Assembly (NCBI GenBank): GCA_964521915.1 | Contig: CAZFTP010000001.1 | Coordinates: 67,611-131,610, forward strand | DNA: 64,000 nucleotides | Direction of reading: 5' to 3' | From: an uncultured Candidatus Marinamargulisbacteria bacterium | Lineage (GTDB): Bacteria > Margulisbacteria > Marinamargulisbacteria > CAZFTP01 | Shown here: piece by piece, positions 3,751-64,000 of the stretch | Layout: each line of letters starts with the position of its first letter | How positions within the stretch are numbered: the first letter of the stretch is position 1 | The notes under the pieces: generated by a model | Database searches by the model: none | Told to the model about the DNA's origin: nothing | Seen by the model: only the letters and a program-made list of their open reading frames with translations | Translations under genes and position numbers: made by a program

Positions 3751-3887
3751 TGTTGCTCCTTTTTATGTATACCCGTGGGGCGAAGCCCCACGGGTATACG
3801 AGAGAAATTGTTTTGCCCTGCCGGGCGGGCTTTAAGGCTTCGCCTTAAAAATCCTTTTTTTCTAAGGGGCTGCGCCTCTTAAACCCC
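3751..3887. repeat. GC-rich mosaic intergenic repeat cluster (modules A and B) between queF and the amidotransferase gene
   Basis: Perfect 33-nt hairpin at 3767-3799 (gtatacccgtggggc-gaa-gccccacgggtatac) plus ttctaaggggctgcgcctcttaaacccc unit; related copies at at least 8 other loci. Confidence 0.85.
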
Positions 3888-4457
3888 TTAAATATAATAG
3901 GCAAGAAAATTTTTAAGAATTTTCTTGCCTGGTTCAGTTAAAATAGATTCCGGGTGAAACTGAATTCCTTCAATCGGAAATTTTTTATGCCTAACGCCCA
4001 TAATAATTTTGTCTTTGGTCCAAGCAGAAATTTCTAAATCATCAGCTAAATTGTTATTATCTATAACCAAAGAATGGTATCTGGTAGCAATAAAAGGGTC
4101 TTCTATATCTTTAAAAATCGTTTTATTATCATGAAAAATTTCTGATGTTTTCCCATGCATTAAACTTGGTGCATAAGTAATTTTTGAACCAAAAACTTGA
4201 CCAATGGCTTGATGCCCCAAACAAACACCCAAAATCGGAATTTTAGGTCCTAATTTTTCTACAACTTCTTGAGATATTCCTGCATGTTCTGGTCTACCTG
4301 GCCCTGGTGAAATTACTAAATATTTTGGTTTTAATTTTTCGATTTCTTCAACGCTTAAAACGTCATTACGAATTACCTTAATATCTTGCCCAAGCTCACC
4401 AAAGTATTGGACTAGGTTATAAGTAAATGAATCATAATTATCAATAATTAATAGCAT
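3888..4457 (-). CDS. glutamine amidotransferase component II of anthranilate/aminodeoxychorismate synthase (TrpG/PabA type)
   Basis: MLLIIDNYDSFTYNL N-terminus, GVCLGHQ catalytic Cys, HPES motif; start moved to the internal ATG at 4457, which is preceded by AAGGAAA. Confidence 0.85.
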   Translation of the reverse strand: MLLIIDNYDSFTYNLVQYFGELGQDIKVIRNDVLSVEEIEKLKPKYLVISPGPGRPEHAGISQEVVEKLGPKIPILGVCLGHQAIGQVFGSKITYAPSLMHGKTSEIFHDNKTIFKDIEDPFIATRYHSLVIDNNNLADDLEISAWTKDKIIMGVRHKKFPIEGIQFHPESILTEPGKKILKNFLAYYI

Positions 4458-22710: not shown

Positions 22711-23355
22711 TTACGGTGTAGTAGCAACTTCTACAAAATCAATACACAATTTAGTAGCATAAGCTTGCTTCATAGCTTGTTTAAAATCGCCTTGCAGTTT
22801 TATTTCTAAAACTTCATCTATTGGCTGAGACCAACCTTCATCTGGTTTTCCCCAAGTTTTTAAGGCAAAGCCTGTTGAAGAAACCGAAGTATAATTACTA
22901 TCTGCTTTTAATTTCGCGTAAATCGGCAATATACTACTAGAATTATCTACACCTACAAAACCCTCACTATTTTCTAAATAAATCTTTAATTTATAATCAC
23001 TATTAGAAACAGCAAGATCATTGTAAACTATATTTAGTAATATTTTTCCGCCAGCTTCTACTTTATCTAATTCTGAAACAGAAAATCTTACCGAATTATA
23101 CATTTCAAAATTAGTTAAATTACCAATATCTACCGTAACATCTGTTGCATCTTTAGTTTCTAAAGAAGTAACCCCTATTTTATTAGTATTATTACTAATA
23201 CTCAAATTTATCTTACCAGAAGCTAAAACTGTTTCCGTAATTTTTGGTGTTTCAACAACAGAATCTGAAGATACTGGCAAAACAGATTTAGTGGTACTAC
23301 AACCAAATAAACCTAAAAACGCACAAAATATAATTAAAAATGCTATTCTTTTCAC
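22711..23355 (-). CDS. hypothetical lipoprotein
   Basis: Signal peptide with lipobox LFGC; Ser/Thr/Asn-rich; no recognisable domain. Confidence 0.5.
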   Translation of the reverse strand: MKRIAFLIIFCAFLGLFGCSTTKSVLPVSSDSVVETPKITETVLASGKINLSISNNTNKIGVTSLETKDATDVTVDIGNLTNFEMYNSVRFSVSELDKVEAGGKILLNIVYNDLAVSNSDYKLKIYLENSEGFVGVDNSSSILPIYAKLKADSNYTSVSSTGFALKTWGKPDEGWSQPIDEVLEIKLQGDFKQAMKQAYATKLCIDFVEVATTP

Positions 23356-23619
23356 TTATCTCCTCCCTTTTTTTATAATTGCTTTTGTCGACAAAAATAC
23401 AACTATATAAAAGCTTAGACAAAAAAATAGCGAAAATCAAGTACTATTTTCATTAATAAAAATTTTGTTTTTAATATTGATATATTATTTATCGCTACAA
23501 AAATAGATAAAATTATCAAGGGGGAATATAAAATCCATTTTATAAAAAGCTTTTTAATTAATATGATAATAAACAATACTTTTTATATTTATAGATAAAA
23601 ATGAGTTTTAATTGTAATT

Positions 23620-23662
23620 ATGAGTCTGTCGCAAAATGAGAAATAGCCATTTTGTAGCAGGT
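23620..23662. repeat. MITE-like inverted-repeat element, copy 1 (gagtctgtcgcaaaatg...ccattttgtagcagg)
   Basis: Shares the terminal-repeat core with copies at 24688, 35941, 36040, 44897 and 55060. Confidence 0.7.
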
Positions 23663-23673
23663 TTATTTTTAAC

Positions 23674-23706
23674 GTACCCCTGGGGGACAGCCCCCCCCAG
23701 GGGTAC
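23674..23706. repeat. module-A-type GC hairpin (gtacccctggggg-acagcc-cccccaggggtac)
   Basis: Palindrome read directly; same architecture as the 33-nt hairpins elsewhere. Confidence 0.75.
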
Positions 23707-23921
23707 AAAAAGAATTAATTTTATTTGACTTAAAGTAAAAGAAAAGCTTATTATATTATCAGATTAATTATTATGAATAATAAAAATTATTTATTAATTT
23801 TATTAATTATTTTTTTTATTCTTTTAGTGTTATTTATTTATAAACAATTCACTAATTGGCATAATGGTGAATTTAGTTTAAATTTAAGCAAAAAAATAAT
23901 TTATCAAGTAACTCAAAAAAC

Positions 23922-24668
23922 ATGAAAAAAACATTATTCATTATTTTTTTCAGTATCATTTTTTACCATACCGCTTTTTCTATTGGTACAGACCAAAGCA
24001 TTATTGAAAAAGCTGTTACTACAAACCAAGAAAACAATTTTAATCTCATTATTTATACAAAAAAACCCGCTGTTTTTATAAATGCTTATAATTGGACTAT
24101 TGACCCAGATGGTAATTCGGTAATTTTTCAAAATCAACCGATTACAGATTGGTTAATTATTCCCAATTTTATCAAAAAAAAAGATCCGAATTTAACTTAT
24201 ATAGAAATTCCTTATACCGTTAAAATTAAAAATCCGGTACAAGCAGAATACTTAGCCAAACTGATTATTTCAGAAGCAGATGACAAAAATACCAATATTA
24301 ATATTACCATGGGTTTAGGAATTCCAATTTATGTTTATTTCAAAGATAAAATCAAAATGAATAATTCTGATATTATGATCAAACAAGTCCGTTATGACCA
24401 TAAAAAATCATTATTAGAAGTAATAGTTGAAAATAACAGCAACGTACATATAAGACCTGATATAAATTTTACGATTGAAAAATCAAAAACCAACCTAGGA
24501 ACTGAAAATTTAACTTCAGGTTGGCCAATATTACCGACCAGCACCAGAAAATTCAGTAAAAAGATCGATCTAAAACCAGGAAAATATCAACTAATTTTTA
24601 CTTCTACTTGGGGGAAACTCTATAATTTAAGCTTTTCTAAAAAAGAAGTTAAAACTTTAATTTTATAA
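23922..24668 (+). CDS. hypothetical secreted protein (signal peptide), bracketed by two MITE-like copies
   Basis: N-terminal hydrophobic signal; no recognisable domain. Confidence 0.5.
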   Translation: MKKTLFIIFFSIIFYHTAFSIGTDQSIIEKAVTTNQENNFNLIIYTKKPAVFINAYNWTIDPDGNSVIFQNQPITDWLIIPNFIKKKDPNLTYIEIPYTVKIKNPVQAEYLAKLIISEADDKNTNINITMGLGIPIYVYFKDKIKMNNSDIMIKQVRYDHKKSLLEVIVENNSNVHIRPDINFTIEKSKTNLGTENLTSGWPILPTSTRKFSKKIDLKPGKYQLIFTSTWGKLYNLSFSKKEVKTLIL

Positions 24669-24687
24669 TCATATCTCATTAAAAATT

Positions 24688-24757
24688 TAGTCTGTCGCAA
24701 AATGAGACATTTTTTCAAAATAGTTTTGAGAAATAGCCATTTTGTAACAGACTCATC
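24688..24757. repeat. MITE-like inverted-repeat element, copy 2 (full length, about 70 bp)
   Basis: agtctgtcgcaaaatgagacattttttcaaaatagttttgagaaatagccattttgtaacagactc. Confidence 0.75.
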
Positions 24758-24769
24758 AAATTATAATTT

Positions 24770-25690
24770 CTAAGAATTAACAATATAAGTTATTTGCGAA
24801 ATATTTTCGTTCTTTTTTATCGGAGTATCCACAAAAAAATCAAAAGTAAGTTTGGTCGCTATTTCTGGTTGTTCAATATGATACAAATGGTCAGCATTTT
24901 TTATAGTCACAAAAACTGCTTTATTAAAACTATTAGCTATTTCTTTACAATATTTTGGTTTAGTGAAAGGATCATATTCTCCTGTAAAAACTATAGCTGG
25001 CACTTTAGATTTCTTTTGTAAATCAAGAGGTGGCTGAGTCAATAAACGTTTAGTATTAAAAATATATTTTGCTTTTTGATCTTCATTTAAAGACTTACAA
25101 CCACTGATTATAATCCTCTTTGCTAACTCAAATTTCTTAATTGTGTGAGATTTATTCTTACAAAGCAATATATTAAAAATTTCTTCCGCAAATTTTTCCA
25201 TATCCCCATTAATAACAGACTTTATAGTATTAGCTACTTTTTTCCGCTTCTCCTTCGGGATTTTCTTCATCGTACCAGTTAAAGCCAAACGATCTACCCT
25301 TTCAGGATAAAGTTGCGCAAATCTATGCGCTATCGGGGTACCATATGATGCCGCAATAATATTTATCTTTTTAATTTTCAATTTATCTATAAGATTAATA
25401 ATACAGGCTACAAAGAAATCCATATCATGTTCCTCAGAAACAGGATCTGCCTTACCCACTCCGGGTAGATCTGTTAAAACCACTTTAGTTCTTACTGAAA
25501 AGAAATCAGCGAATTTTTTCCAAGAATTCATATTTTGAAAAGCGCCGCTTAACATTAAAATAGGAGAAATTTTTCGATTTTTTTTACCAAAACAACGATA
25601 ATAATATTTAAAATTTTGATAAAGAATAACTGAATCTTGACAAGCAAACGGTATTTTTACGTCTTTACTATGTGGTTGCGACATTCCCAA
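24770..25690 (-). CDS. alpha/beta-hydrolase fold protein
   Basis: AASYG nucleophile-elbow variant; D and H downstream (DHLYH). Confidence 0.6.
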   Translation of the reverse strand: MGMSQPHSKDVKIPFACQDSVILYQNFKYYYRCFGKKNRKISPILMLSGAFQNMNSWKKFADFFSVRTKVVLTDLPGVGKADPVSEEHDMDFFVACIINLIDKLKIKKINIIAASYGTPIAHRFAQLYPERVDRLALTGTMKKIPKEKRKKVANTIKSVINGDMEKFAEEIFNILLCKNKSHTIKKFELAKRIIISGCKSLNEDQKAKYIFNTKRLLTQPPLDLQKKSKVPAIVFTGEYDPFTKPKYCKEIANSFNKAVFVTIKNADHLYHIEQPEIATKLTFDFFVDTPIKKNENISQITYIVNS

Positions 25691-33934: not shown

Positions 33935-34000
33935 GGATGAATCAAAAAAGTCACCCTGGCTGACCCAAAAGCATCACGAGCTTTTGGGCCAACCCCCTTT
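33935..34000 (+). terminator. nested GC stem-loop followed by a T-tract, downstream of the 33448 gene
   Basis: gacccaaaagc-atcacga-gcttttgggcc within aaagggg...ccccctttatttt. Confidence 0.55.
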
Positions 34001-34157
34001 ATTTTCAACTTGTTACAAAGTGATAATTTTTCAAACTATTGCATCAAAATCAATTTTTAAATTTCATTCATAAGACTACTAAAAAAATTTTGCTAATTCA
34101 TCAAAAATATGCATTAATTATAGAATATAATTATTATTAAAAGGCAGGTTTATTCTT

Positions 34158-35792
34158 ATGAATAAAATTAAACTTATTTTTATCCTATTAATTGTTTTTT
34201 TGCTTTATAATTATTGTCAGCTCACTTTTGCCAGTATTTATTTACCAAAATATGATTTCAATATCCTAATTCCAAATTTTTGGGAAATTACTCCTACTAC
34301 TAACAATATCATTGCTCTAGAGCTAGAAAATAAAACTAGTTCTGCTAATCTTACTATCTATTATTTCCCTGATATTAGCGATTTAAAAATTATTAAAGAA
34401 CAAATACAAAATAAGAATTGGCAAAAAGTAAAAGAACGTAAATTATCAGAAACAGAACTAAAAAATTCCGGAGCAAATTATGGAATTGCTGTTTTACAAA
34501 ATTCACTAATACCAAATAATAACAAGTTTAAATTTGATTATTTTTATAAATATAATAATCAAATTTACGTAATTTCCCTTATTTGCGGAAAAAAACAATG
34601 GAAAAACATTGAAAAAGATATTCGTTTAATCCTAAAAAATTTTTGGTTCGGAGCATCTATAAGAGATGAACAAGCACTATTAGATCAAGAAACCGAATGG
34701 CGTATGGTTGGTAAAAATTCAAAAAACTATAACAGTTTAACAATTTCTCCTATAAATAATTTGGAATTAAATAATAATTTAACCATAGTAATACCAGATA
34801 ATATTTCCGCAAGCTATAATAATTTAACTTTTTACGAAAATACAATCTATTTAAAAACCGATTACAAAATCATAGCTTATAAATTAAACGGAGAAATAGT
34901 TTGGGAACATCATAATCAAAATAAAATTCTGAAAAATATTTTACTAGAAACTAATTTGCTTTTTTTTCTTACTTTTAAAAACAAAAATCAATTAGTGTTA
35001 AATTCACTAAAAAGCTCTACCGGCGAAATTTATTTTCAAAAAGATATTAAGGGCAAAGATACAACCTATTTAGTAAGTAATGATAATATTATTTATTTAG
35101 TTATAGATAAAAAATTGACAGCAATTGAAAATGAATCAGGGTCAATTATTTGGCAAACTACGGCAAATTATAATAATAGTTTTTATCCGGTAATTAGTAA
35201 TGACTATATAACAGCCATAAAACAAAAACAAAATTTAGTGGTTGCCGATAAAATAACCGGTGAAAAAATATGGGAAAAAAAACTGGAAGGCTTCCCCTTA
35301 TTTTCACCAATAATTACTAACAATTTAGTTCTTGTTTTTTATAAATCAAATATTCATCAGGTTTTTAATCTTAAAGCGTATAATTTAGAAACAGGTAAAG
35401 AAATATGGAATTTTCCCAAAATACTAAGTCTCAAAAAAGTGTTAAATCGCCCGTCTATTATTAATAACCAATTAGTATTTTTAGGTATTGATAAAAATAA
35501 AACTCAAGATTTGTTGCTATTTGTAGTAAATACAGAAAATGGCGAAGAAATTAAACAATATAAATTAAATAAAAATAATTGGCTTTTAGATAATATCATG
35601 AATACCAACGAGGGTATTTTTATTTTATCAAATAATATAAATAAACCATTAGCATTAAACAGAATAAATTTTAGTAAAGGTACTTTAAAAAAATATTATC
35701 TTAAAGAAACAAATCAAATTTTAGATACCAAAATATTTTTAAATCAACTATTTCTAATTAATAATAACCATGAACTACAGATTTACTATTAG
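34158..35792 (+). CDS. secreted protein with C-terminal PQQ-like beta-propeller repeats (BamB-like)
   Basis: Signal peptide; repeated G(E/S)xxW motifs (NGEIVWE, SGSIIWQ, TGEKIWE, TGKEIWN). Confidence 0.55.
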   Translation: MNKIKLIFILLIVFLLYNYCQLTFASIYLPKYDFNILIPNFWEITPTTNNIIALELENKTSSANLTIYYFPDISDLKIIKEQIQNKNWQKVKERKLSETELKNSGANYGIAVLQNSLIPNNNKFKFDYFYKYNNQIYVISLICGKKQWKNIEKDIRLILKNFWFGASIRDEQALLDQETEWRMVGKNSKNYNSLTISPINNLELNNNLTIVIPDNISASYNNLTFYENTIYLKTDYKIIAYKLNGEIVWEHHNQNKILKNILLETNLLFFLTFKNKNQLVLNSLKSSTGEIYFQKDIKGKDTTYLVSNDNIIYLVIDKKLTAIENESGSIIWQTTANYNNSFYPVISNDYITAIKQKQNLVVADKITGEKIWEKKLEGFPLFSPIITNNLVLVFYKSNIHQVFNLKAYNLETGKEIWNFPKILSLKKVLNRPSIINNQLVFLGIDKNKTQDLLLFVVNTENGEEIKQYKLNKNNWLLDNIMNTNEGIFILSNNINKPLALNRINFSKGTLKKYYLKETNQILDTKIFLNQLFLINNNHELQIYY

Positions 35793-35940
35793 CGTAAATA
35801 ATGATAAGTAAAAATAAATACTTGACGTTACTATAATTTCTGCATTATACTATATTTATCAAGCTTGAAGAAAAGCTCTATCAGCTGAGGGCTTTTCCAA
35901 AACTACCCTAAATTTGTTTAAGACACAAATTATAAAGAGA

Positions 35941-35982
35941 GTTTGTCGTGAAATAAATTTTTTTCAAAATAGAAGTCATAAA
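35941..35982. repeat. degenerate MITE-like copy
   Basis: gtttgtcgtgaaataaatttttttcaaaatagaagtcat matches the family core with substitutions. Confidence 0.45.
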
Positions 35983-36039
35983 TTAATTTTTGATTTGGAG
36001 TTTATGCTTATAAATAATTAATTTTAACGCACTAGTTTG

Positions 36040-36068
36040 GGAAAATAGCCATTTTGCTACAGACTCAA
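36040..36068. repeat. MITE-like half copy (aaatagccattttgctacagactc) upstream of ssb
   Basis: Right-arm terminal repeat only. Confidence 0.6.
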
Positions 36069-36119
36069 AGGAGAAAATAAAAAAAATAACCTAACCTTAC
36101 TTTAAAAAGAGGTGTTAAA

Positions 36120-44562: not shown

Positions 44563-44896
44563 AATTTTCCTCCTTATTAATTATTTATGTATATTAAAGC
44601 TTCGCCTTAATATACATATAAAATACATAAAAAAAATTTTATTTATATCAATGAAAAATCTAAACAGAAGATACAGGATTACTTTGAATTAGTAATAACC
44701 AAACTAAATTTTCCAACAAAATTTATAATAAATTATTTTTTGTTAATTAACAAAAAAGATTTTTTTAATAATTTCAATTATTTACAAATATTTAAGTAAT
44801 CTAACTTTAATTTTATAGATATTAAATAGCTTATTTTATATCTAACTATTTAGTATTTTTCATAATCTAACCTTACTACTAGTATTATAACAAATT

Positions 44897-44936
44897 ATGA
44901 GTCTGTTGCAAAATGGCTATTTCGCGACAGACTCAT
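44897..44936. repeat. MITE-like compact copy with perfect 10-bp termini (atgagtctgt...acagactcat)
   Basis: atgagtctgttgcaaaatggctatttcgcgacagactcat. Confidence 0.7.
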
Positions 44937-44960
44937 TATTAAAATTTTATAGGCTTATTT

Positions 44961-45893
44961 TTATAAAAAGAGACCCTTGTATAAAAAATACACTCCAAAG
45001 CTAATTAAACCTACCAACCAAAACAACAAAACAACCTTAATTTCACTTAAGCCCATCATTTCAAAATGATGATGCAAAGGCGCCATTTTAAAAATCCGCC
45101 TTTTAAATAATTTATAACTACCAACCTGCAAAATTACAGACAAAGTTTCACAAATATAAACAAAACCAAACGGTATTAATAACCAAAAATTATTCAATAT
45201 CAAACTTAAACCCACAAAAAGAGCCCCTATTGATAAAGAACCGGTATCGCCCATAAAAATTTTGGCTTTATGCTTATTGAAAATTAGAAAACATAAAATT
45301 GAAGTAATAAAAACACCAACAAATTTTATTGATTCTAAATCGTTAACCTTAAAAAAAACCAGAAAAAAACCTATTGCCGAAATTATACTTAAACCACCTA
45401 ATAAACCATCTAAACCATCAGTTAAATTGGTAGCATTAGAAAACCCTACCATTAAAAACCAATAAATTAAAAAATTTATAATTCCAACTTTATTGATAAA
45501 AATAGTATATACACTTAATAAAACAAAAGTAATAATTATCTGAAGAAGAAATTTTTGTTTTGCGGAAAACCCCTTATTCTTATGACTTTTAACAGATAAA
45601 AAATCGTCCACAAAACCTAATATCACAAAACTTAAAAATACCAAATAAAGCCATAATATTATTGGCGAAAACAGCTTAAAAATAATTATGCCCAAACTTA
45701 AAATAAACAAAATACCTATGCCACCAAAAGACGGTGTTTTACTCTTTTGCTGATGACTTCCAGGACTAAGATCATAAATAGGCTGATAAATTTTTATCTG
45801 CTTTAAAAAAATGATTAACAACCAATAAAATACAACACCAACAAAAAAAAGCAAAATAAATTTAAGCATATTTTTCCTTAAGTTTTTCAACAA
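44961..45893 (-). CDS. mraY: phospho-N-acetylmuramoyl-pentapeptide transferase
   Basis: Polytopic membrane protein; GFVDDFLS and NLTDGLDGL motifs. Confidence 0.85.
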   Translation of the reverse strand: MLKNLRKNMLKFILLFFVGVVFYWLLIIFLKQIKIYQPIYDLSPGSHQQKSKTPSFGGIGILFILSLGIIIFKLFSPIILWLYLVFLSFVILGFVDDFLSVKSHKNKGFSAKQKFLLQIIITFVLLSVYTIFINKVGIINFLIYWFLMVGFSNATNLTDGLDGLLGGLSIISAIGFFLVFFKVNDLESIKFVGVFITSILCFLIFNKHKAKIFMGDTGSLSIGALFVGLSLILNNFWLLIPFGFVYICETLSVILQVGSYKLFKRRIFKMAPLHHHFEMMGLSEIKVVLLFWLVGLISFGVYFLYKGLFL

Positions 45894-54950: not shown

Positions 54951-55059
54951 AAGCTTGACTTACTAATTTCACTAATTAAAAACTTTATACTCTAGTCTCT
55001 GATTGACTTCTATGCTTAATTGTTCGTACAATATATAATAGAATAGAATAACTATATAA

Positions 55060-55116
55060 GAAGTCTGTCGCGAAATGAGAAATTTTTTCAAAATAGCCAT
55101 TTTGCAACAGATTCAT
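55060..55116. repeat. MITE-like copy upstream of fliK
   Basis: agtctgtcgcgaaatgagaaattttttcaaaatagccattttgcaacagattc. Confidence 0.7.
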
Positions 55117-55127
55117 AAGGATAAATT

Positions 55128-58687: not shown

Positions 58688-59434
58688 ATGTTATCTAATA
58701 AAAAAATGAAATCTTTTTTAAAAATTATTTTTTTTAGCCTAATTTTATTATTAACAACTCCTTTTTTTTGTTTTTGCTTAACTGCAAACGAAATAGTCAA
58801 TTACATTAATAATGAAATTACCAAAAAAATTATTATTGATTATCCAAATTACGAAAATCTCTCTGTAAGTACAAATATTAAAAATAACCACTTATTAAAA
58901 AAAATACCGGAAAAAACTAATTTTTGCAGTCTTAGTTTGAATAAAAAACCAATACCAATTGGAATTTCTATCATTAATGTGAATTTACTTGATAAAGAAA
59001 ATAAAATACTAGAAACAAAACCCTTAATTATTTATATTACGGCAAATGCAGATTTTGTTGTAACAACTAGATTAATTAATGCAAAAGAAATAATAAAAGA
59101 AGCTGATTTAGAAATAATTAATTTAGAAATAAACAATAAACCGCAAAATATCATTTTAAAAAAATCAGCTATCATTAATAAAGAAACAAAAGTAGGAATA
59201 CCAAAAGGATCTATTATTACGAATTCTATGATTCAAGAAGTGCCAATTATTAGAAAAGGTGAGAAAATTACTATGATTTATCTAAATAATAATATACAAT
59301 TAGTATTAAGGGCAACTGCGCTTGAAGATGGATGCTTAGGTTCTAAAATAAATGTTAAATTATCTGATTCTGCCCAAGTTTTTAAAGGAGAAATAATTGA
59401 AGCAAGAAAAGTTTTGGTTATTAGTAATAATTAG
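58688..59434 (+). CDS. flgA: flagellar basal-body P-ring formation chaperone FlgA
   Basis: Signal peptide; C-terminal SAF/FlgA domain (GEKITMIYLNN...ALEDGCLGSKINVK). Confidence 0.8.
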   Translation: MLSNKKMKSFLKIIFFSLILLLTTPFFCFCLTANEIVNYINNEITKKIIIDYPNYENLSVSTNIKNNHLLKKIPEKTNFCSLSLNKKPIPIGISIINVNLLDKENKILETKPLIIYITANADFVVTTRLINAKEIIKEADLEIINLEINNKPQNIILKKSAIINKETKVGIPKGSIITNSMIQEVPIIRKGEKITMIYLNNNIQLVLRATALEDGCLGSKINVKLSDSAQVFKGEIIEARKVLVISNN

Positions 59435-60020
59435 TTTATTTTTTTTAGCTGGTTTTTCTTCTTTTTTATCAGCGGATTCTCTTTGGAATAAAAAAAACGC
59501 ATCTCTTTTTAGCACCACAAAACCGCTACATATTGGAGATATTTTAACCATTATTATTTCAGAATCATCTACAGCAGTACAAGAAGCTGGCACTAAAACC
59601 AGCAAAGCATCAAATATTAATTCGAATTTATTTAGTAATTGGCAACAAGTAGCTCAAGTTTTAGGACAAAGTGAAATGATGCGGAAAAATCAAGACATAA
59701 AACTTGGCGGCGGAGATAGTTATTCTGGTACTGGGCAAACTTCCCGAAAACACAAAGTGGAAGCTATTATCACAGCTATTGTTAAAGAAATTTATGATAA
59801 TGGTACCGTATTAATTGCCGGCGAACATAATGTTAAGGTTAATGACGAAGTTGAAACAATCTGTATTTCCGGTATTATCAGAATTGAAGATGTTACTAGT
59901 GATAATACTATTTTTTCTTATCAAATGGCAAAAGCTGATATTTCCGTAAAAGGTCAGGGAGTAGTAGCATCTAAACAAACTCCAGGTATTTTAACTCAAT
60001 TATTTAACTGGTTATTTTAA
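59397..60020 (+). CDS. flgH: flagellar L-ring protein FlgH
   Basis: Signal peptide; SLWN...ASLF...KPLHIGDILTIIISE FlgH core. Confidence 0.85.
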   Translation: MKQEKFWLLVIISLFFLAGFSSFLSADSLWNKKNASLFSTTKPLHIGDILTIIISESSTAVQEAGTKTSKASNINSNLFSNWQQVAQVLGQSEMMRKNQDIKLGGGDSYSGTGQTSRKHKVEAIITAIVKEIYDNGTVLIAGEHNVKVNDEVETICISGIIRIEDVTSDNTIFSYQMAKADISVKGQGVVASKQTPGILTQLFNWLF

Positions 60021-61135
60021 TGCTAACTATAAAAAAAATGAAAAAAATAACTATTTTAACTTTAATTATCACTATCATTTTTAATTTCTTTTTTATGCTT
60101 AATAAAATTAATTCTTCAGCAACTGTAAGATTAAAAGATGTTTCTAAAATTGTTGAAGTAAGAGAAAACCAAATTTATGGTTTTGGTTTGGTTATGGGGT
60201 TACAGAATTCAGGAGATTCCAAAGCCATGCTTTTTACCAATAAAGCTTTAACTAATTTATTGAAAAAAATGGGAATCCCTCAAGATGGTAGAGAATATAC
60301 TTCCAGAAACATTGCCGCAGTTATGGTAACTGCTACTTTGCCCCCATTTATAAAAAAAGGACAAAAAATTGATGTTATTGTTTCTTCTATTGGTGATGCT
60401 AATAGTCTTGCTGGCGGTACTTTATTGCTGACTCCTTTAGAAGGTCCTGATAAAAAAATATACGCATTAGCACAAGGAGCTATTATTGTTGGCGGTTTAG
60501 CTGAAGCTTCTACTTATTCACGCATGATTAAAAACCAAGCAACCGTTGGTAGAATACAAGGCGGTGGGATTGTTGAAGAAGAAGTACCTGTAACTTTATC
60601 TGATAATAAAAATATCACTATTGCTCTAAATAAACCGAATTTTATTACAGCTTCTAGGGTAGAACAAGCATTAATAAAAGCTGGTTTTACTAATGCTATG
60701 GCTATTGATGCTTCTACTATTACAGTTCCTTTAGCGAATGCATCTTTAGTTAATACCATTGCCAAAATTGAATCAGTTAGTCTTACACCTGATGCTTCTA
60801 ATAAAGTGGTCATTAATGCTAAAACTGGAACTGTTGCTATTGGTGAAATGGTTAGACTTTCCCCGGTTGCTATAACTCATGGTAATATTTCAATTAAAAT
60901 TCTAGATGAAAAAGAATATAATGATTATTTTGGTTATTATGACCCGGTTAGAGAACGCAACCCTATTACCATCACAGAATCAAAAGCAAAATTTATTTAT
61001 TTAAAACCTGACGACAATTTATCTAGCTTAGTAAATGCATTAAACAAAGTTGGAACTACGCCAAGAGATATGATTTCTATTTTGCAAGCTTTAAAAGAAT
61101 CTGGTTCTTTAATTGGAGATATTGAAATAATATGA
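60020..61135 (+). CDS. flgI: flagellar P-ring protein FlgI
   Basis: 371 aa; signal peptide; RLKDVS...RENQIYGFGLVMGL...GD FlgI N-terminal signature. Confidence 0.9.
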   Translation: MLTIKKMKKITILTLIITIIFNFFFMLNKINSSATVRLKDVSKIVEVRENQIYGFGLVMGLQNSGDSKAMLFTNKALTNLLKKMGIPQDGREYTSRNIAAVMVTATLPPFIKKGQKIDVIVSSIGDANSLAGGTLLLTPLEGPDKKIYALAQGAIIVGGLAEASTYSRMIKNQATVGRIQGGGIVEEEVPVTLSDNKNITIALNKPNFITASRVEQALIKAGFTNAMAIDASTITVPLANASLVNTIAKIESVSLTPDASNKVVINAKTGTVAIGEMVRLSPVAITHGNISIKILDEKEYNDYFGYYDPVRERNPITITESKAKFIYLKPDDNLSSLVNALNKVGTTPRDMISILQALKESGSLIGDIEII

Positions 61136-61461
61136 TAAATTCTATTGATACATCTTATTTTATCGAAAAAAATTTAGAATCAGCTGATTACCAACGTCGT
61201 ATTCAAGCTAATAACAAAAAACAAAATATTGAAGAATTTGAAAAAATTCTCCTCAAAAAAGTTTATTTAGAATCTTTAATTGATAAAGATGAAGAAGAAG
61301 ACGAAGAAAACGATAGAGGTATATTATCCAGCGATAATTCATTATATAATGAAATGTTACTTGATCTTTATGCTCAACAATTAGCAAAACAAGATATTTT
61401 TAATTTGCAAAAAATTTATAATAAAAATGAACAAACAAAAAGTACCGAACCAAACAATTAA
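61132..61461 (+). CDS. rod-binding protein (FlgJ N-terminal-domain type)
   Basis: EEFEKILLKKVYLESL...SLYNEMLLDLYAQQLAK matches the Rod-binding family. Confidence 0.6.
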   Translation: MINSIDTSYFIEKNLESADYQRRIQANNKKQNIEEFEKILLKKVYLESLIDKDEEEDEENDRGILSSDNSLYNEMLLDLYAQQLAKQDIFNLQKIYNKNEQTKSTEPNN

Positions 61462-62206
61462 TATCACAGAACTCCAGCAAAAAGAAATTACCTCCAAAAA
61501 AAGGGAGACGAAAATTTCTGAAGAGTTTATTAAAGAACATATGTCTACAGTTGAATCTATTGCTTCTGTAATTATGTCTGGCAGTAAAACGCCTCCCGGC
61601 ATTTTTTATAATGATTTAATTAGTTGGGGGGTTGAAGGCTTAATTAAAGCTAAAAATAATTTTAAAGCTGATAAAGGGTCTCAGTTTAAAACATATGCTT
61701 ATTACCGTATTAGAGGTGAAATTTTAGATAAGTTGCGTCAGGAATGGTATTATCGAAACCCGACAGATTACAAATTACAGCAAGAAAAAATACAAAAAAG
61801 AATTGCCGAAGTTACTGAACAAGCTATTGATAATTCAGATAAAACCTCAGATAAAAGTATTAATGATAAAGTCAACGATTTAATTGCTAATTCTGCAGTA
61901 GTATATTTATTATCTTTAGATGACATTGAATCAATTACTAAAATTGAAGGCACGGGCGGCGACCCTGCAATTGAAATTATCGAAGAAGTAGACAGAAAAG
62001 AAAGTCATTCTTTATTATGGGAAGAAATTAATTTTTTAAATAAAGATGAAAAAAGATTAATTGAACTTTTTTATGTAAAAGACCAAAAACAAAAAGAAAT
62101 AGCGGAAATAATGCATTTATCCAGAAGCAAAGTATGCCGTATGCACATGAAAATATTAGACAAATTAAGAAGAAGGCTTGAAAAAAAACTTAATGCAGAT
62201 GAATAA
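61427..62206 (+). CDS. fliA: flagellar sigma factor sigma-28 (FliA)
   Basis: FKTYAYYRIRGEILDKLRQEWYYR region-2 signature of FliA; C-terminal HTH EIAEIMHLSRSKVCRM. Confidence 0.85.
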   Translation: MNKQKVPNQTINITELQQKEITSKKRETKISEEFIKEHMSTVESIASVIMSGSKTPPGIFYNDLISWGVEGLIKAKNNFKADKGSQFKTYAYYRIRGEILDKLRQEWYYRNPTDYKLQQEKIQKRIAEVTEQAIDNSDKTSDKSINDKVNDLIANSAVVYLLSLDDIESITKIEGTGGDPAIEIIEEVDRKESHSLLWEEINFLNKDEKRLIELFYVKDQKQKEIAEIMHLSRSKVCRMHMKILDKLRRRLEKKLNADE

Positions 62207-62233
62207 TATTATTATATAATATTAGGAGATAAC

Positions 62234-62551
62234 ATGGAGAATAAAACAATTAATTCTATTGTCTATGATAAGCCAATGCAAGGTTTAGCTAGTGCTATAA
62301 AAATAGCCACTAGAAAACAAGCCATTTATTCTTATAATATTTCTAATGCTTCTACCCCAGGGTTTAGACCAATTCGTTTTGAAGATGAATTAGAAGATGC
62401 AGAAACTAAAATTGAGAATCAAGAATTTAATATTGAAGAAGAAATGGCCAGAATGAATGAAAACAGATTGCAACACAGTGCTTTAGTCAGAATTTTATAT
62501 ACTAAAGCTCAATTAATGAGAAAAGTTGTAACTTTAGGTAAAGGAGGATAA
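62234..62551 (+). CDS. flgB: flagellar proximal rod protein FlgB
   Basis: 105 aa; N-terminal ...ASAIKIATRKQAIYSYNISNASTPGFRP and C-terminal rod segment. Confidence 0.85.
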   Translation: MENKTINSIVYDKPMQGLASAIKIATRKQAIYSYNISNASTPGFRPIRFEDELEDAETKIENQEFNIEEEMARMNENRLQHSALVRILYTKAQLMRKVVTLGKGG

Positions 62552-62553
62552 AA

Positions 62554-63069
62554 ATGACTAAATCAGTTTATTTTTTTCTATTGATATTTACCATGATTTT
62601 AATGTTTAGTCTTATTTGTTTGGCAGAGGATCTCTCTAAATTCAAAACTGATAATGATGATGATATTTTATCTAGAAAAGATTTAGGCACCGATGATGCT
62701 TTAAAATTAAGTACTAGCGGGGTTTTAGCTCAAAAATTACAATTAAGGGTAAGTGCGGAAAATATTGCTAATGCAACAACCATAAAAACAGAAAATGGCA
62801 TACCCTATCAGAAAAAATATTTGATTTTAAAAACTTCTCAAAAAGGAGTAAAAGTTGCCGGCATTAGAAAAAGTACAGAACCTTTCAAAGAAGTTTATGA
62901 TCCGGCTAACCCATTATCAGATAAAAACGGTTTTATTTATTTACCTAACGTTGATGTCTCCCAAGAAATGGTCCAAATAAGTTTAACGAATGTTTTATAT
63001 GAAGCTAATACTACTGCTTATAAATCTGCTAAAGCTATGTATCAGCAATCTTTAGATTTATTAAAATAA
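62554..63069 (+). CDS. flgC: flagellar rod protein FlgC with a roughly 50-aa N-terminal hydrophobic extension
   Basis: RVSAENIANATT and C-terminal LPNVDVSQEMVQISLTNVLYEANTTAYK FlgC signatures; start fixed by AAAGGAGG 7 nt upstream. Confidence 0.85.
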   Translation: MTKSVYFFLLIFTMILMFSLICLAEDLSKFKTDNDDDILSRKDLGTDDALKLSTSGVLAQKLQLRVSAENIANATTIKTENGIPYQKKYLILKTSQKGVKVAGIRKSTEPFKEVYDPANPLSDKNGFIYLPNVDVSQEMVQISLTNVLYEANTTAYKSAKAMYQQSLDLLK

Positions 63070-63079
63070 GGAGAGAAAA

Positions 63080-63424
63080 ATGAATATTAACCCGATTCAA
63101 GCAATTAATTTAGAAAAAGAAAAAAACGACGAAATTTTCAACACTCAAAATATTAGTGTAATTAACCCGATAATAAACCCTATAGAATCAATTAGTCGGG
63201 CGCCCTTTCAAATTATGTTAGAAAATGCGGTTGATGCTTTACAAAATGTTAGTAATACGGAACAAGAAAATAACAAATTAATCGATGAATTTATCCAAGG
63301 GAAAAGATCTGTTGATGAAGTTTTAATTTCTACCAATCAATTAAATTTAGAAATGTCTTTATTAACTACAGTAGTAAATACAACTGTACAAACTTTTAAA
63401 GAAATTCAACAAATGCAGGTATAA
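63080..63424 (+). CDS. fliE: flagellar hook-basal body protein FliE
   Basis: C-terminal TTVVNTTVQTFKEIQQMQV (FliE ...MQV ending). Confidence 0.85.
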   Translation: MNINPIQAINLEKEKNDEIFNTQNISVINPIINPIESISRAPFQIMLENAVDALQNVSNTEQENNKLIDEFIQGKRSVDEVLISTNQLNLEMSLLTTVVNTTVQTFKEIQQMQV

Positions 63425-63448
63425 TTTAATTTATAAAAAAGGTTAAAT

Positions 63449-64000
63449 ATGGCAGAAGAAATAAATAATAATGATGATTTAGATTTAGGTTCCCCGATTG
63501 TTCCTGAAACAAAAAAACGTAAGCATTTACCTTTTTGGTTTTCAGCCGGATTATTTTCTTTAATCATAATAGTCATTATTGTGGGGTTAATTTTCATTCT
63601 TTTTAAAGGACATTCTTCACCTCATTCTAAAAAACAGTTAAGTTTAGATAACGTTAGTACTAGTTTAGACGACAGAAATTCTTCTGCAGAATCATCGACA
63701 AAACAAAAACAACTTGAAAAAGAAATTGAACAGCTTAAAAAAAATTTAAAAGCTCAAGAAGAAGCAAAAAAGAAAAAAGAAAAACCTACAAAAATAGATT
63801 ATGTATTACTCTATGTAAATTTGGATGCTAATCAAACTGCCGCTGTTATAAAAGAACTAAGTATTGCGGAAGTCTCTTTTGATTTAAAACAAAAAGGGAA
63901 ATATTATGACCTCTGGGTAGATAGAAATAAACAAGAAGAATCAAAAAACATTCTTGCTGTTAGAGGCTTACCAAGCGGCGGCATTAAAGGATACGAGTTA
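63449..64000 (+). CDS. fliF: flagellar MS-ring protein FliF, N-terminal portion (3' end outside window)
   Basis: TM segment FWFSAGLFSLIIIVIIVGLIFIL; YVLLYVNLDANQTAAVIKEL...NILAVRGLPSGGIKGYEL FliF motif; ORF runs off the window end. Confidence 0.8.
   Translation, partial: MAEEINNNDDLDLGSPIVPETKKRKHLPFWFSAGLFSLIIIVIIVGLIFILFKGHSSPHSKKQLSLDNVSTSLDDRNSSAESSTKQKQLEKEIEQLKKNLKAQEEAKKKKEKPTKIDYVLLYVNLDANQTAAVIKELSIAEVSFDLKQKGKYYDLWVDRNKQEESKNILAVRGLPSGGIKGYEL

What the first reader, a model, noticed from the sequence alone, without database searches (positions are those of the whole stretch)
23620..24757. MITE-like inverted-repeat element family (terminal repeat GAGTCTGTCGCAAAATG) bracketing a secreted-protein gene
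Copies at 23620-23662, 24688-24757, 35941-35982 (degenerate), 36040-36068 (half), 44897-44936 (compact, perfect 10-bp termini) and 55060-55116 share terminal repeats gagtctgtcgc(a/g)aaatg ... cattttg(c/t)aacagactc around an AT-rich core (gagaaattttttcaaaatagc). They are AT-rich and unrelated to the GC-rich modules. Two copies flank the hypothetical secreted protein gene 23922-24668 in a composite-transposon-like arrangement. Others sit upstream of ssb, recA and fliK. No transposase is present in the window, consistent with non-autonomous MITEs. Alternatively the palindrome is a recurrent operator for one DNA-binding protein.
Basis: seen in the sequence. Interest (0 to 1): 0.55.

Follow-up and report, generated by a model that had tools for sequence, protein, structure and literature searches.

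The report
Small mobile palindromic repeat (MITE) family
The repeated palindromes are real: they are short, non-coding "hitch-hiker" transposons (MITEs) scattered between genes of an uncultured Margulisbacteria genome. Each insertion is marked by a 5-base duplication of its target, so this is an ordinary kind of element in a little-studied phylum, not a regulatory site or a gene-carrying transposon.

Summary
The arm GAGTCTGTCGCAAAATG occurs 8 times in the window against 0.07 expected. The arms form five intergenic elements plus a sixth decayed remnant at 34006-34061.

The MITE reading is supported by new evidence. Exactly 5-bp direct (not inverted) duplications abut the arms in copies D (ATAAT), E (ATAAG) and in a copy from another Margulisbacteria genome (AAAAG). 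Two more copies match at 4 of 5 positions. The chance of three or more perfect matches in seven is about 2e-6.

The pieces listed at 35941-35982 and 36040-36068 are the two ends of one 128-bp long form (35939-36066). This form is about 88% identical to a metagenome copy. The 36-67 bp copies are nested internal-deletion derivatives of it, each with a different microhomology junction.

Two related MAGs (RecA about 80% identical, about 60 kb sampled) have no copies. Their recA sits directly after cinA, so this is not a conserved operator.

The composite-transposon idea for gene 23922-24668 has no support. The outer flanks match at only 3 of 5 positions, and adjacent-gap copies are expected by chance (P about 0.7).

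No transposase lies in the window, and the parent element is unidentified. The ends resemble ISH3 (CRGT, 5-bp duplication) and Tn3 (GGGGTCTGACGC, 5 bp) only partly.

Verdict: a new member of a known kind, of modest interest.

The parts
23622..23664 (+). Copy A, 43 bp short form. The left arm is perfect and the right arm (23648-23664) is degenerate. Flanking 5-mers are ATTAT (23617-23621) and ATTTT (23665-23669), matching at 4 of 5 positions. It lies in a divergent gap, 109 nt upstream of the small ORF 23774-23924. A GC-rich hairpin module follows at 23675-23706.
   Evidence: deletion junction microhomology AAAT; DNA hairpin z = -2.4
24688..24754 (+). Copy B, 67 bp. It retains part of the long form's right interior (TAGTTTTGAGAAATAG). 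It lies in a convergent gap, 19 nt after the stop codon of gene 23922-24668 and 15 nt after the end of the hydrolase gene 24770-25690(-). There is no clean target duplication: AAATT on the left recurs on the right only at an offset of +3.
   Evidence: junction microhomology TAG; DNA hairpin z = -5.6
34006..34061 (-). Copy F, a decayed remnant. It has a degenerate arm (CAACTTGTTACAAAGTG, 11 of 17 matches) plus the right-half interior of the long form. It lies upstream of the BamB-like gene 34158-35792 and is anti-oriented to it.
   Evidence: blast of L121 against the window; nhmmer E=0.005, model positions 112-163
35939..36066 (+). Copy C, the 128 bp long form. Its arms of roughly 36 bp are imperfect inverted repeats, and its interior is also palindromic. 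Flanking 5-mers are AAAGA (35934-35938) and AAAGG (36067-36071), matching at 4 of 5 positions. The ssb start codon is 53 nt downstream.
   Evidence: (about 88% identical to L121 over the shared parts)
44899..44934 (-). Copy D, the 36 bp compact form. It has a perfect 5-bp target duplication: ATTAT on the + strand at 44894-44898 and 44935-44939 (ATAAT in element orientation). It lies 26 nt after the end of the glycosyltransferase gene 44961-45893(-) and 336 nt upstream of recA.
   Evidence: junction microhomology GAAAT; DNA hairpin z = -5.2
55061..55114 (+). Copy E, 54 bp. It has a perfect 5-bp target duplication ATAAG at 55056-55060 and 55115-55119. It lies 110 nt after accA and 13 nt before the ATG of the FliK-like gene. 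The right duplicate plus the following GA forms the ribosome-binding site AAGGA.
   Evidence: junction microhomology AAAATAG; for the genes

Best explanation
These are copies of one family of miniature inverted-repeat transposable elements in a roughly 30% GC genome of Candidatus Margulisiibacteriota.

Proposed mechanism:
- A transposase encoded elsewhere (not in this window) recognises the terminal inverted repeats. The core is GAGTCTGTCGCRAAATG on the left and its near-complement CATTTTGYRACAGACTC on the right. The repeats are about 36 bp long in the long form.
- The transposase inserts the element into A/T-rich 5-bp targets (AWAAK-like) with a 5-bp staggered cut, which leaves a 5-bp direct duplication.
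- The progenitor is a long form of about 130 bp that is palindromic along its whole length. The 36-67 bp copies are nested internal-deletion derivatives of it, each with a different junction lying in 3-7 nt of microhomology.

Shown: the inverted repeats, the 5-bp duplications, dispersed intergenic copies in at least two or three genomes, absence from the sampled relatives, and the nested deletion series.

Inferred: the transposase and its family, whether the element is still active, and whether the deletions happened before or after insertion. Copies D and E share arm-specific variants and have perfect duplications, so at least the 54-bp form was probably itself mobile. Any effect on neighbouring genes, such as a hairpin in the 5' UTR of the FliK-like gene, is a by-product and is untested.
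For: - Arms: 8 found against 0.07 expected.
- Target duplications: exact 5-bp direct repeats, not inverted, sit at the same boundary in D, E and L101. No other length from 3 to 9 bp matches. A and C match at 4 of 5 positions. The per-copy chance of a perfect match is 0.003-0.004, so three or more of seven has P about 2e-6.
- Location: all six copies lie in the 12% of the window that is intergenic.
- Long form: C and metagenome copy L121 are about 88% identical, although one lies before ssb and the other before a different, unidentified gene.
- Other genomes: a Margulisiibacteriota single-cell genome (L101) carries the same arms, extended to about 20 bp, with a different loop and a perfect AAAAG duplication.
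- Deletion series: four short forms have four different junctions, each in microhomology: AAAT, TAG, GAAAT and AAAATAG (alignment).
- Relatives: about 60 kb from two MAGs with RecA about 80% identical contain no arm with up to 3 mismatches.
- Other signals: the window has no Rfam family hit apart from one tRNA. In the one region scanned (23300-24900), no promoter-like or terminator-like site lies inside copies A or B.
Against: - No autonomous element with matching ends was found.
- Two of seven copies (B, L121) lack a recognisable duplication.
- Copy lengths are heterogeneous, whereas recently amplified MITE families are usually uniform.
- Only 6 copies were seen in the window and 3 elsewhere. 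No filled-versus-empty site polymorphism was observed.
- In tandem gene gaps, 5 of 6 copies point the same way as the downstream gene. This could hint at selection on a transcript-level role, but it is not significant (two-sided p about 0.2).
Confidence: 0.8

Rival explanations
1. The palindrome is the operator of one dimeric DNA-binding regulator. A DNA-damage regulon is one candidate, because copies lie upstream of recA and ssb.
For: Copies lie upstream of ssb and recA. The arms contain CTGT...ACAG, which recalls the E. coli LexA box (my own knowledge). The arms are conserved in three genomes while the loop differs.
Against: - The distance between arms varies from 2 to 94 nt.
- Distances to start codons range from 13 to 336 nt.
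- One copy sits between convergent gene ends and one is anti-oriented to its downstream gene.
- Exact 5-bp duplications flank the copies. An operator has no reason to carry these.
- In two related MAGs, recA follows cinA directly and no arm is present.
- The other flanked genes (a secreted protein, a FliK-like protein, a BamB-like protein) form no coherent regulon.
Confidence: 0.03
2. These are REP/REPIN-type extragenic palindromes spread by a RAYT (Y1) transposase, or structural hairpins kept for an RNA-level role such as transcript stabilisation, termination or RNase processing.
For: They are strictly intergenic imperfect palindromes of 36-67 bp that fold into strong hairpins (z = -5.2 to -9.4 for B, D and L101). 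B and D sit 15-26 nt after the ends of genes. In tandem gaps, 5 of 6 copies are co-oriented with transcription.
Against: - REP elements leave no target duplication, whereas 5-bp duplications are present here.
- No Y1/RAYT-type protein is encoded in the window.
- In the one region scanned (23300-24900), no terminator-like site with a T-run was found, including at copies A and B.
- The orientation bias is not significant.
- The long form C folds no better than shuffled sequence (z = -0.8).
Confidence: 0.07
3. Copies A and B form a composite transposon (like a TIME-COMP) that carried the small membrane ORF plus the secreted-protein gene (23774-24668) into this locus.
For: A and B bracket exactly one two-gene unit. 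The outward-facing arms are the best preserved (A left has 0 mismatches, B right has 2), and A's inner arm is degenerate. The homologues in two related MAGs sit in a different context, next to ychF. Pairs of Tn3-derived MITEs have been shown experimentally to move intervening DNA with 5-bp duplications (PMC4133298).
Against: - The outer flanks ATTAT / ATCAA match at 3 of 5 positions, while A alone matches at 4 of 5, which suggests A inserted on its own.
- Adjacent-gap copies are expected by chance (P about 0.72 for 6 copies in 29 gaps). A second such pair, F and C, exists.
- Synteny is broken around recA as well, so relocation is not specific to this gene.
- The GC content of the segment is not distinctive.
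Confidence: 0.05

Closest known systems
Bacterial MITEs in general (for example Correia/NEMIS of Neisseria, RUP of Streptococcus pneumoniae, MITEAba12)
   Same: Small and non-coding, with terminal inverted repeats and a target-site duplication. Copies are multiple, dispersed and intergenic, often next to gene starts. No transposase is encoded in the element. Transcripts would fold into hairpins.
   Different: The duplication is 5 bp, not the TA typical of Correia/RUP-type elements (my own knowledge; PMC4133298 says DRs are 'usually the dinucleotide TA'). The sequence is unrelated. Lengths are very heterogeneous (36-168 bp) because of nested internal deletions. The host is an uncultured candidate phylum.
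[quoted passage not shown]
   Same: 5-bp (sometimes 6-bp) A/T-rich duplications. The long form has inverted repeats of about 36 bp, against 38 bp in TIMEs. Positions 3-11 of the arm (GTCTGTCGC) resemble Tn3's GGGGTCTGACGC (my own recollection of the Tn3 repeat). Pairs can bracket genes, as in TIME-COMPs.
   Different: The arm starts with GAG, not GGGG, and there is no inner TAAG motif. The 36-54 bp copies, with arms of only about 17 bp, have perfect duplications, which suggests that short ends are enough. No Tn3-family transposase is linked to the family.
ISH3 family insertion sequences (PMC2266710)
   Same: Duplications are typically 5 bp. The conserved ends are CRGT, and here the ends are GAGT. 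A Leptospiraceae repeat with a very similar end, CAGTCTGTTGCGAAATG, fits CRGT exactly.
   Different: The first base is G, not C. In 2008 ISH3 was known only from archaea. No transposase is available for comparison. This is a lead, not a test.
REP / REPIN elements mobilised by RAYT transposases
   Same: Short imperfect extragenic palindromes present in many copies.
   Different: REPs have no target duplication and are tied to a Y1 transposase gene. Here duplications are present and no such gene was seen.

Membership tests
MITE (non-autonomous DDE-transposon derivative) | Small (about 30-300 bp) with no coding capacity | tested here: met
   Copies are 36-128 bp in the window and 168 bp in L121. 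None is part of an ORF of at least 80 aa.
MITE (non-autonomous DDE-transposon derivative) | Terminal inverted repeats | tested here: met
   The core arms are 17 nt and occur 8 times against 0.07 expected. The inverted repeat is about 36 bp in the long forms.
MITE (non-autonomous DDE-transposon derivative) | Target-site duplication of fixed length at the element boundary | tested here: met
   The duplication is 5 bp: perfect in D, E and L101, 4 of 5 in A and C, and absent in B and L121. P(three or more of seven) is about 2e-6.
MITE (non-autonomous DDE-transposon derivative) | Multiple dispersed copies at non-homologous sites | tested here: met
   Six copies in 64 kb, plus copies at unrelated sites in L120, L121 and L101.
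MITE (non-autonomous DDE-transposon derivative) | An autonomous element in the same or a related genome with matching inverted repeats | not testable with these tools
   The source genome outside the window could not be retrieved. No transposase lies in the window. Plasmid and viral searches found nothing.
MITE (non-autonomous DDE-transposon derivative) | Presence/absence polymorphism (empty sites) between strains | tested here: inconclusive
   The only other assemblies of this organism (Logan SRR4343442 and SRR4343444) are 100% identical to the window. The sampled relatives, whose RecA is about 80% identical, lack the family altogether, but they are too distant for a site-by-site comparison.
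Tn3-derived TIME | 38-bp inverted repeats that begin GGGG and end TAAG | tested here: not met
   The arms begin GAG (or A/T at the first base). The inner end reads (A/C)TAG at about positions 32-36. Only GTCTGTCGC resembles Tn3's GTCTGACGC (Tn3 sequence from my own knowledge).
Tn3-derived TIME | 5-bp A/T-rich target duplication | tested here: met
   ATAAT, ATAAG and AAAAG. TIMEs give 5-6 bp A/T-rich repeats (PMC4133298).
ISH3-family derivative | Ends CRGT and 4-5 bp duplication (PMC2266710) | tested here: inconclusive
   The duplication of 5 bp fits. The ends are GAGT, matching 3 of the 4 consensus positions.
REP/REPIN | No target duplication, and association with a RAYT (Y1 transposase) gene | tested here: not met
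   5-bp duplications are present. No Y1 transposase hit among the window's ORFs.
Transcription-factor operator (for example a LexA box) | Fixed half-site spacing and a conserved position in orthologous promoters | tested here: not met
   Arm spacing ranges from 2 to 94 nt. The recA upstream regions of relatives lack the motif.
Composite transposon (TIME-COMP-like) around 23774-24668 | A target duplication flanking the outer ends of the two bounding elements | tested here: not met
   The outer flanks are ATTAT and ATCAA, matching at 3 of 5 positions.

The most novel reading that the evidence does not exclude
The family derives from a so far undescribed bacterial transposon lineage with 5-bp duplications and GAGTCTGTCGC-type ends. 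Candidates are an ISH3-like element, a family previously considered archaeal, or an atypical relative of Tn3. Because its preferred targets (ATAAG|G, AAAAG|G, AAAG|G) look like ribosome-binding sites, it inserts immediately upstream of start codons. Some copies, for example the one 13 nt before the FliK-like gene and those before ssb and recA, have then been co-opted as 5'-UTR hairpins that modulate expression.
Probability: 0.1. Interest if true: 0.5.

Novelty: new member of a known kind. Interest (0 to 1): 0.3.

Why it matters
A two-term full-text search (Margulisbacteria plus miniature inverted-repeat) found no paper holding both terms. A defined family with a clear 5-bp duplication has three practical uses:
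- It gives a marker for strain typing and for assembly breaks in these uncultured genomes.
- It gives a handle for finding the cognate transposase.
- It gives a small natural series showing how long palindromic insertions shrink through microhomology deletions.

It does not change any concept. For annotation, the main value is negative: these palindromes should not be read as operators of recA, ssb or flagellar genes, nor as evidence that the secreted-protein gene is mobile cargo.

Tried and rejected
1. Genome-collection scan with AGTCTGTYGCRAAATG. The pattern was too short. It did yield two by-products: L101, a true family member in a Margulisiibacteriota SAG, and a Leptospiraceae repeat at contig ends.
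2. Retrieving the source contig (262,883 bp) or walking beyond the window. The exact-protein look-ups failed or returned only short, identical Logan contigs.
3. Metagenome scan with AAATAGCCATTTTGYNRCAGA. It gave 6 loci, of which only L120 and L121 are clear family members. L122 and L124 carry the same sequence and look like chance matches. L119 and L123 are right-arm-only matches that remain unresolved.
4. Searches of plasmids with copy C and with the Leptospiraceae end, and a viral-contig scan. These gave only A/T-rich chance alignments and one match that looks like coding sequence.
5. Full-text literature search for the arm sequences. It returned only unrelated papers that contain the same short strings.
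6. Promoter and terminator consensus scan of 23300-24900. Nothing was found inside copies A or B. The best promoter for the 23774 operon (23725-23754) lies downstream of copy A.
7. The Rfam gathering scan found only tRNA-Lys.
8. Search for a cinA remnant between copy D and recA. None was found.
9. Reading the flanking 'AT' as an extension of the palindrome. Rejected, because the flanks are direct repeats, not inverted ones.

Full report
**Observation**

The 17-nt arm GAGTCTGTCGCAAAATG (up to 3 mismatches) occurs 8 times in the window, against 0.07 expected from dinucleotide shuffles. A ninth arm with 4 mismatches lies at 35939. The 14-nt core AAATAGCCATTTTG is present without mismatch in all five loci.

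Anchoring each element on GAGTCTG...CAGACTC gives five copies:

| Copy | Coordinates | Strand | Length |
|---|---|---|---|
| A | 23622-23664 | + | 43 bp |
| B | 24688-24754 | + | 67 bp |
| C | 35939-36066 | + | 128 bp |
| D | 44899-44934 | - | 36 bp |
| E | 55061-55114 | + | 54 bp |

Here '+' means left arm, then AAATAGCC, then right arm. A sixth, decayed half-copy (F) lies at about 34006-34061 on the minus strand. All six copies lie in the 12% of the window that is intergenic.

**Host and context**

The window has about 30% GC. Its RecA is most similar to proteins named Candidatus Margulisiibacteriota, and the nearest is 80% identical. The source NCBI contig of 262,883 bp could not be retrieved. 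Logan contigs from SRR4343442 and SRR4343444 are 100% identical to the window.

Pfam annotation of the ORFs of at least 80 aa between 12 and 56770 found housekeeping and flagellar genes and no transposase. Called genes on the identical Logan contig L117 cover 59173-64000 and show only flagellar and sigma-factor families.

The genes flanking each copy are as follows.
- A lies in a divergent gap, 109 nt before a small membrane ORF (23774-23924). That ORF overlaps the start of the 248-aa signal-peptide protein (23922-24668).
- B lies in the convergent gap between that gene and an alpha/beta hydrolase gene.
- C lies 53 nt before ssb.
- D lies 26 nt after the end of a family-4 glycosyltransferase gene and 336 nt before recA.
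- E lies 110 nt after accA and 13 nt before a weak FliK-like gene.

**Target-site duplications: the decisive test**

With the boundaries fixed at the arm ends, the five bases outside the left and right ends are:

| Copy | Left | Right | Match |
|---|---|---|---|
| D | ATAAT | ATAAT | 5 of 5 |
| E | ATAAG | ATAAG | 5 of 5 |
| L101 (a Margulisiibacteriota single-cell genome) | AAAAG | AAAAG | 5 of 5 |
| C | AAAGA | AAAGG | 4 of 5 |
| A | ATTAT | ATTTT | 4 of 5 |
| B | AAATT | ATCAA | 1 of 5 (AAATT recurs at offset +3) |
| L121 | TTTAT | TAAAT | 3 of 5 |

In the three perfect cases no other length from 3 to 9 bp matches. The repeats are direct, not inverted.

Two 5-mers at such spacing are identical with probability 0.003-0.004 in this sequence. 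Three or more perfect cases in seven has P about 2e-6. This is the signature of insertion by a transposase that makes 5-bp staggered cuts in A/T-rich targets.

**Anatomy of the family**

A metagenome scan with a 21-nt right-end pattern returned six loci. Two of them, from sample Ga0172379, are clear relatives.
- C and L121 are about 88% identical over their shared parts. L121 also has a GC-rich hairpin module nested in its centre.
- L120 carries only a right end, 17 nt before an ATG.

The long form is palindromic along its whole length. The first 36 nt or so of each half form the inverted repeat, and the interior pairs as well.

Each short copy equals the long form minus an internal segment, and the four junctions differ. 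Each junction lies in a short microhomology (alignment):

| Copy | Microhomology at junction |
|---|---|
| A | AAAT |
| B | TAG |
| D | GAAAT |
| E | AAAATAG |

B retains a piece of the right interior that E lacks, so at least two independent deletions occurred.

D and E share arm-specific variants (left arm CGCG, right arm TTGCAA) and have perfect duplications. The 54-bp form was therefore probably itself mobile, with D a further 18-bp deletion of it. Whether the other deletions came before or after insertion cannot be decided.

L101 has the same arms extended to 20 bp, with an unrelated 10-nt loop. The arms are thus the conserved, presumably transposase-bound, part.

As single-stranded DNA, the copies fold into hairpins better than shuffles for B (z = -5.6), D (z = -5.2) and L101 (z = -9.4). 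The effect is only weak for A (z = -2.4) and E (z = -2.5), and absent for C (z = -0.8).

**Distribution**

About 60 kb was sampled from two related MAGs whose RecA is about 80% identical to the window's: Ga0376277 (L125, L129) and ANAN16-1 (L126, L130). These loci contain no arm with up to 3 mismatches, whereas the 64-kb window has 8. The family is therefore patchy among Margulisbacteria, as expected for a mobile element.

**Rival readings**

*Operator.* The arm spacing ranges from 2 to 94 nt. Positions relative to genes are inconsistent. The copies carry target duplications. In both relatives, recA follows cinA directly with no palindrome. In the one region scanned, no sigma-70-like promoter or terminator consensus lies inside copies A or B. 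The operator reading is refuted.

*REP/RAYT-type palindromes or RNA hairpins.* This reading is disfavoured by the duplications and by the lack of a Y1 transposase in the window. It cannot be fully excluded without the genome.

*Orientation bias.* In tandem gene gaps, 5 of 6 copies point the same way as the downstream gene (C, D, E, L121, L120, against F). This is not significant (two-sided p about 0.2).

*Composite transposon around 23774-24668.*
- The outer flanks match at 3 of 5 positions, while A alone matches at 4 of 5.
- With 6 copies in 29 gaps, adjacent-gap pairs are expected with P about 0.72 (my calculation from the gaps). F and C form a second such pair around the BamB-like gene.
- The 248-aa protein has homologues of 46-48% identity in the two relatives, next to ychF and preceded by a small ORF of 54 aa in one relative's contigs, with no elements nearby.
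- Synteny is also broken at recA, so relocation of this gene is not special.
- TIME-COMPs show that such composites can exist (PMC4133298). Nothing here requires one.

**Parent element**

The parent element was not found. Families with duplications of about 5 bp include ISH3 (ends CRGT, typically 5 bp) and IS1634 (5-6 bp, A/T-rich) (PMC2266710). The Tn3 family and its TIMEs also qualify (38-bp repeats, 5-6 bp A/T-rich duplications; PMC4133298).

The arm GAGTCTGTCGC matches 3 of the 4 positions of the ISH3 consensus. It also resembles Tn3's GGGGTCTGACGC (my recollection), but it lacks the GGGG and TAAG hallmarks.

Three contig ends of a Leptospiraceae MAG carry a 52-nt repeat that begins CAGTCTGTTGCGAAATG. 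This fits CRGT exactly and matches 14 of 17 positions of our arm. It may be the end of a related autonomous element, but its body could not be fetched. These are leads, not tests.

**Side observation on targets**

Four right flanks read like ribosome-binding sites: AAAGGAG (C), ATAAGGA (E), AAAAGG (L101) and AAAAAGGA (L120). In E and L120 the gene's ATG follows within 13-17 nt.

The simplest reading is a target preference for A-rich purine 5-mers, which in this genome often are ribosome-binding sites. One consequence is that copy E must be transcribed as part of the 5' UTR of the FliK-like gene. Whether that matters is untested.

**Verdict**

The feature is real and statistically solid. It is a MITE family with 5-bp target duplications and a nested deletion series. 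It is a new member of a well-known kind in an understudied phylum. Confidence is 0.8 for transposition origin, lower for the order of the deletions, and none for the identity of the transposase.

Noticed in passing
window 3765-3895, 23675-23706, 33950-33997, about 44590-44615; L120 655-690; L121 (minus-strand display) 551-510 and 1345-1280: GC-rich hairpin modules in an otherwise 30% GC genome. Several have GCGAAGC or GCTTCGC (GAA/UUCG-type) loops, for example cccgtggggcgaagccccacggg and ttaaggcttcgccttaa. The same kind occurs in the Ga0172379 contigs. One is nested in the central loop of the long-form MITE in L121, and one abuts copy A. This is a separate repeat family, possibly terminator-like or REP-like.
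   Followed up: partly
L004 969-1021, L020 1-53, L035 6398-6449 (Leptospiraceae MAG DAORDH01): Three contigs end in the same 52-nt sequence, CAGTCTGTTGCGAAATGTTAAAGAATTAAAAGTCAGCCTTTAAAAATAAAT. It is probably the end of a multi-copy insertion sequence that broke the assembly. Its first 17 nt match the MITE arm at 14 positions and fit the ISH3 end consensus CRGT.
   Followed up: partly
window 23774-23924: An unlisted 50-codon ORF encodes a hydrophobic peptide. Its stop overlaps the ATG of the 248-aa signal-peptide protein (ATGA). Homologues of that protein in one related MAG's contigs (L130-L132) are also preceded by a small ORF of 52-54 aa, so this is probably a conserved two-gene unit of unknown function.
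   Followed up: partly
window 44563-44960 versus L125-L128: In the related MAGs the order is metK-cinA-recA-rny. In the window, recA-rny is kept, but cinA and metK are absent upstream. They are replaced by a 398-bp A/T-rich gap holding copy D and a GC-rich hairpin, and no cinA remnant is detectable.
   Followed up: yes
window 55115-55127, 36067-36073; L101 156-161; L120 2046-2053: The duplicated targets and right flanks of several copies look like Shine-Dalgarno sequences (AAGGA, AAAGGAG, AAAAGG). The element seems to prefer sites at or just upstream of ribosome-binding sites.
   Followed up: partly
L101 1-3632: The SAG contig carrying the perfect 50-bp palindrome has only four ORFs of at least 60 aa in 3.6 kb. 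That is an unusually low coding density. It could reflect pseudogenes, a different genetic code or a non-coding island.
   Followed up: no
L119 1965-1994 (Ga0209550 contig, 21% GC); L123 5235-5260: Isolated matches to the right arm only (AAAATAGCCATTTTGTAACAGA) in other A/T-rich metagenome contigs. They could be solo ends of related elements or chance matches.
   Followed up: no
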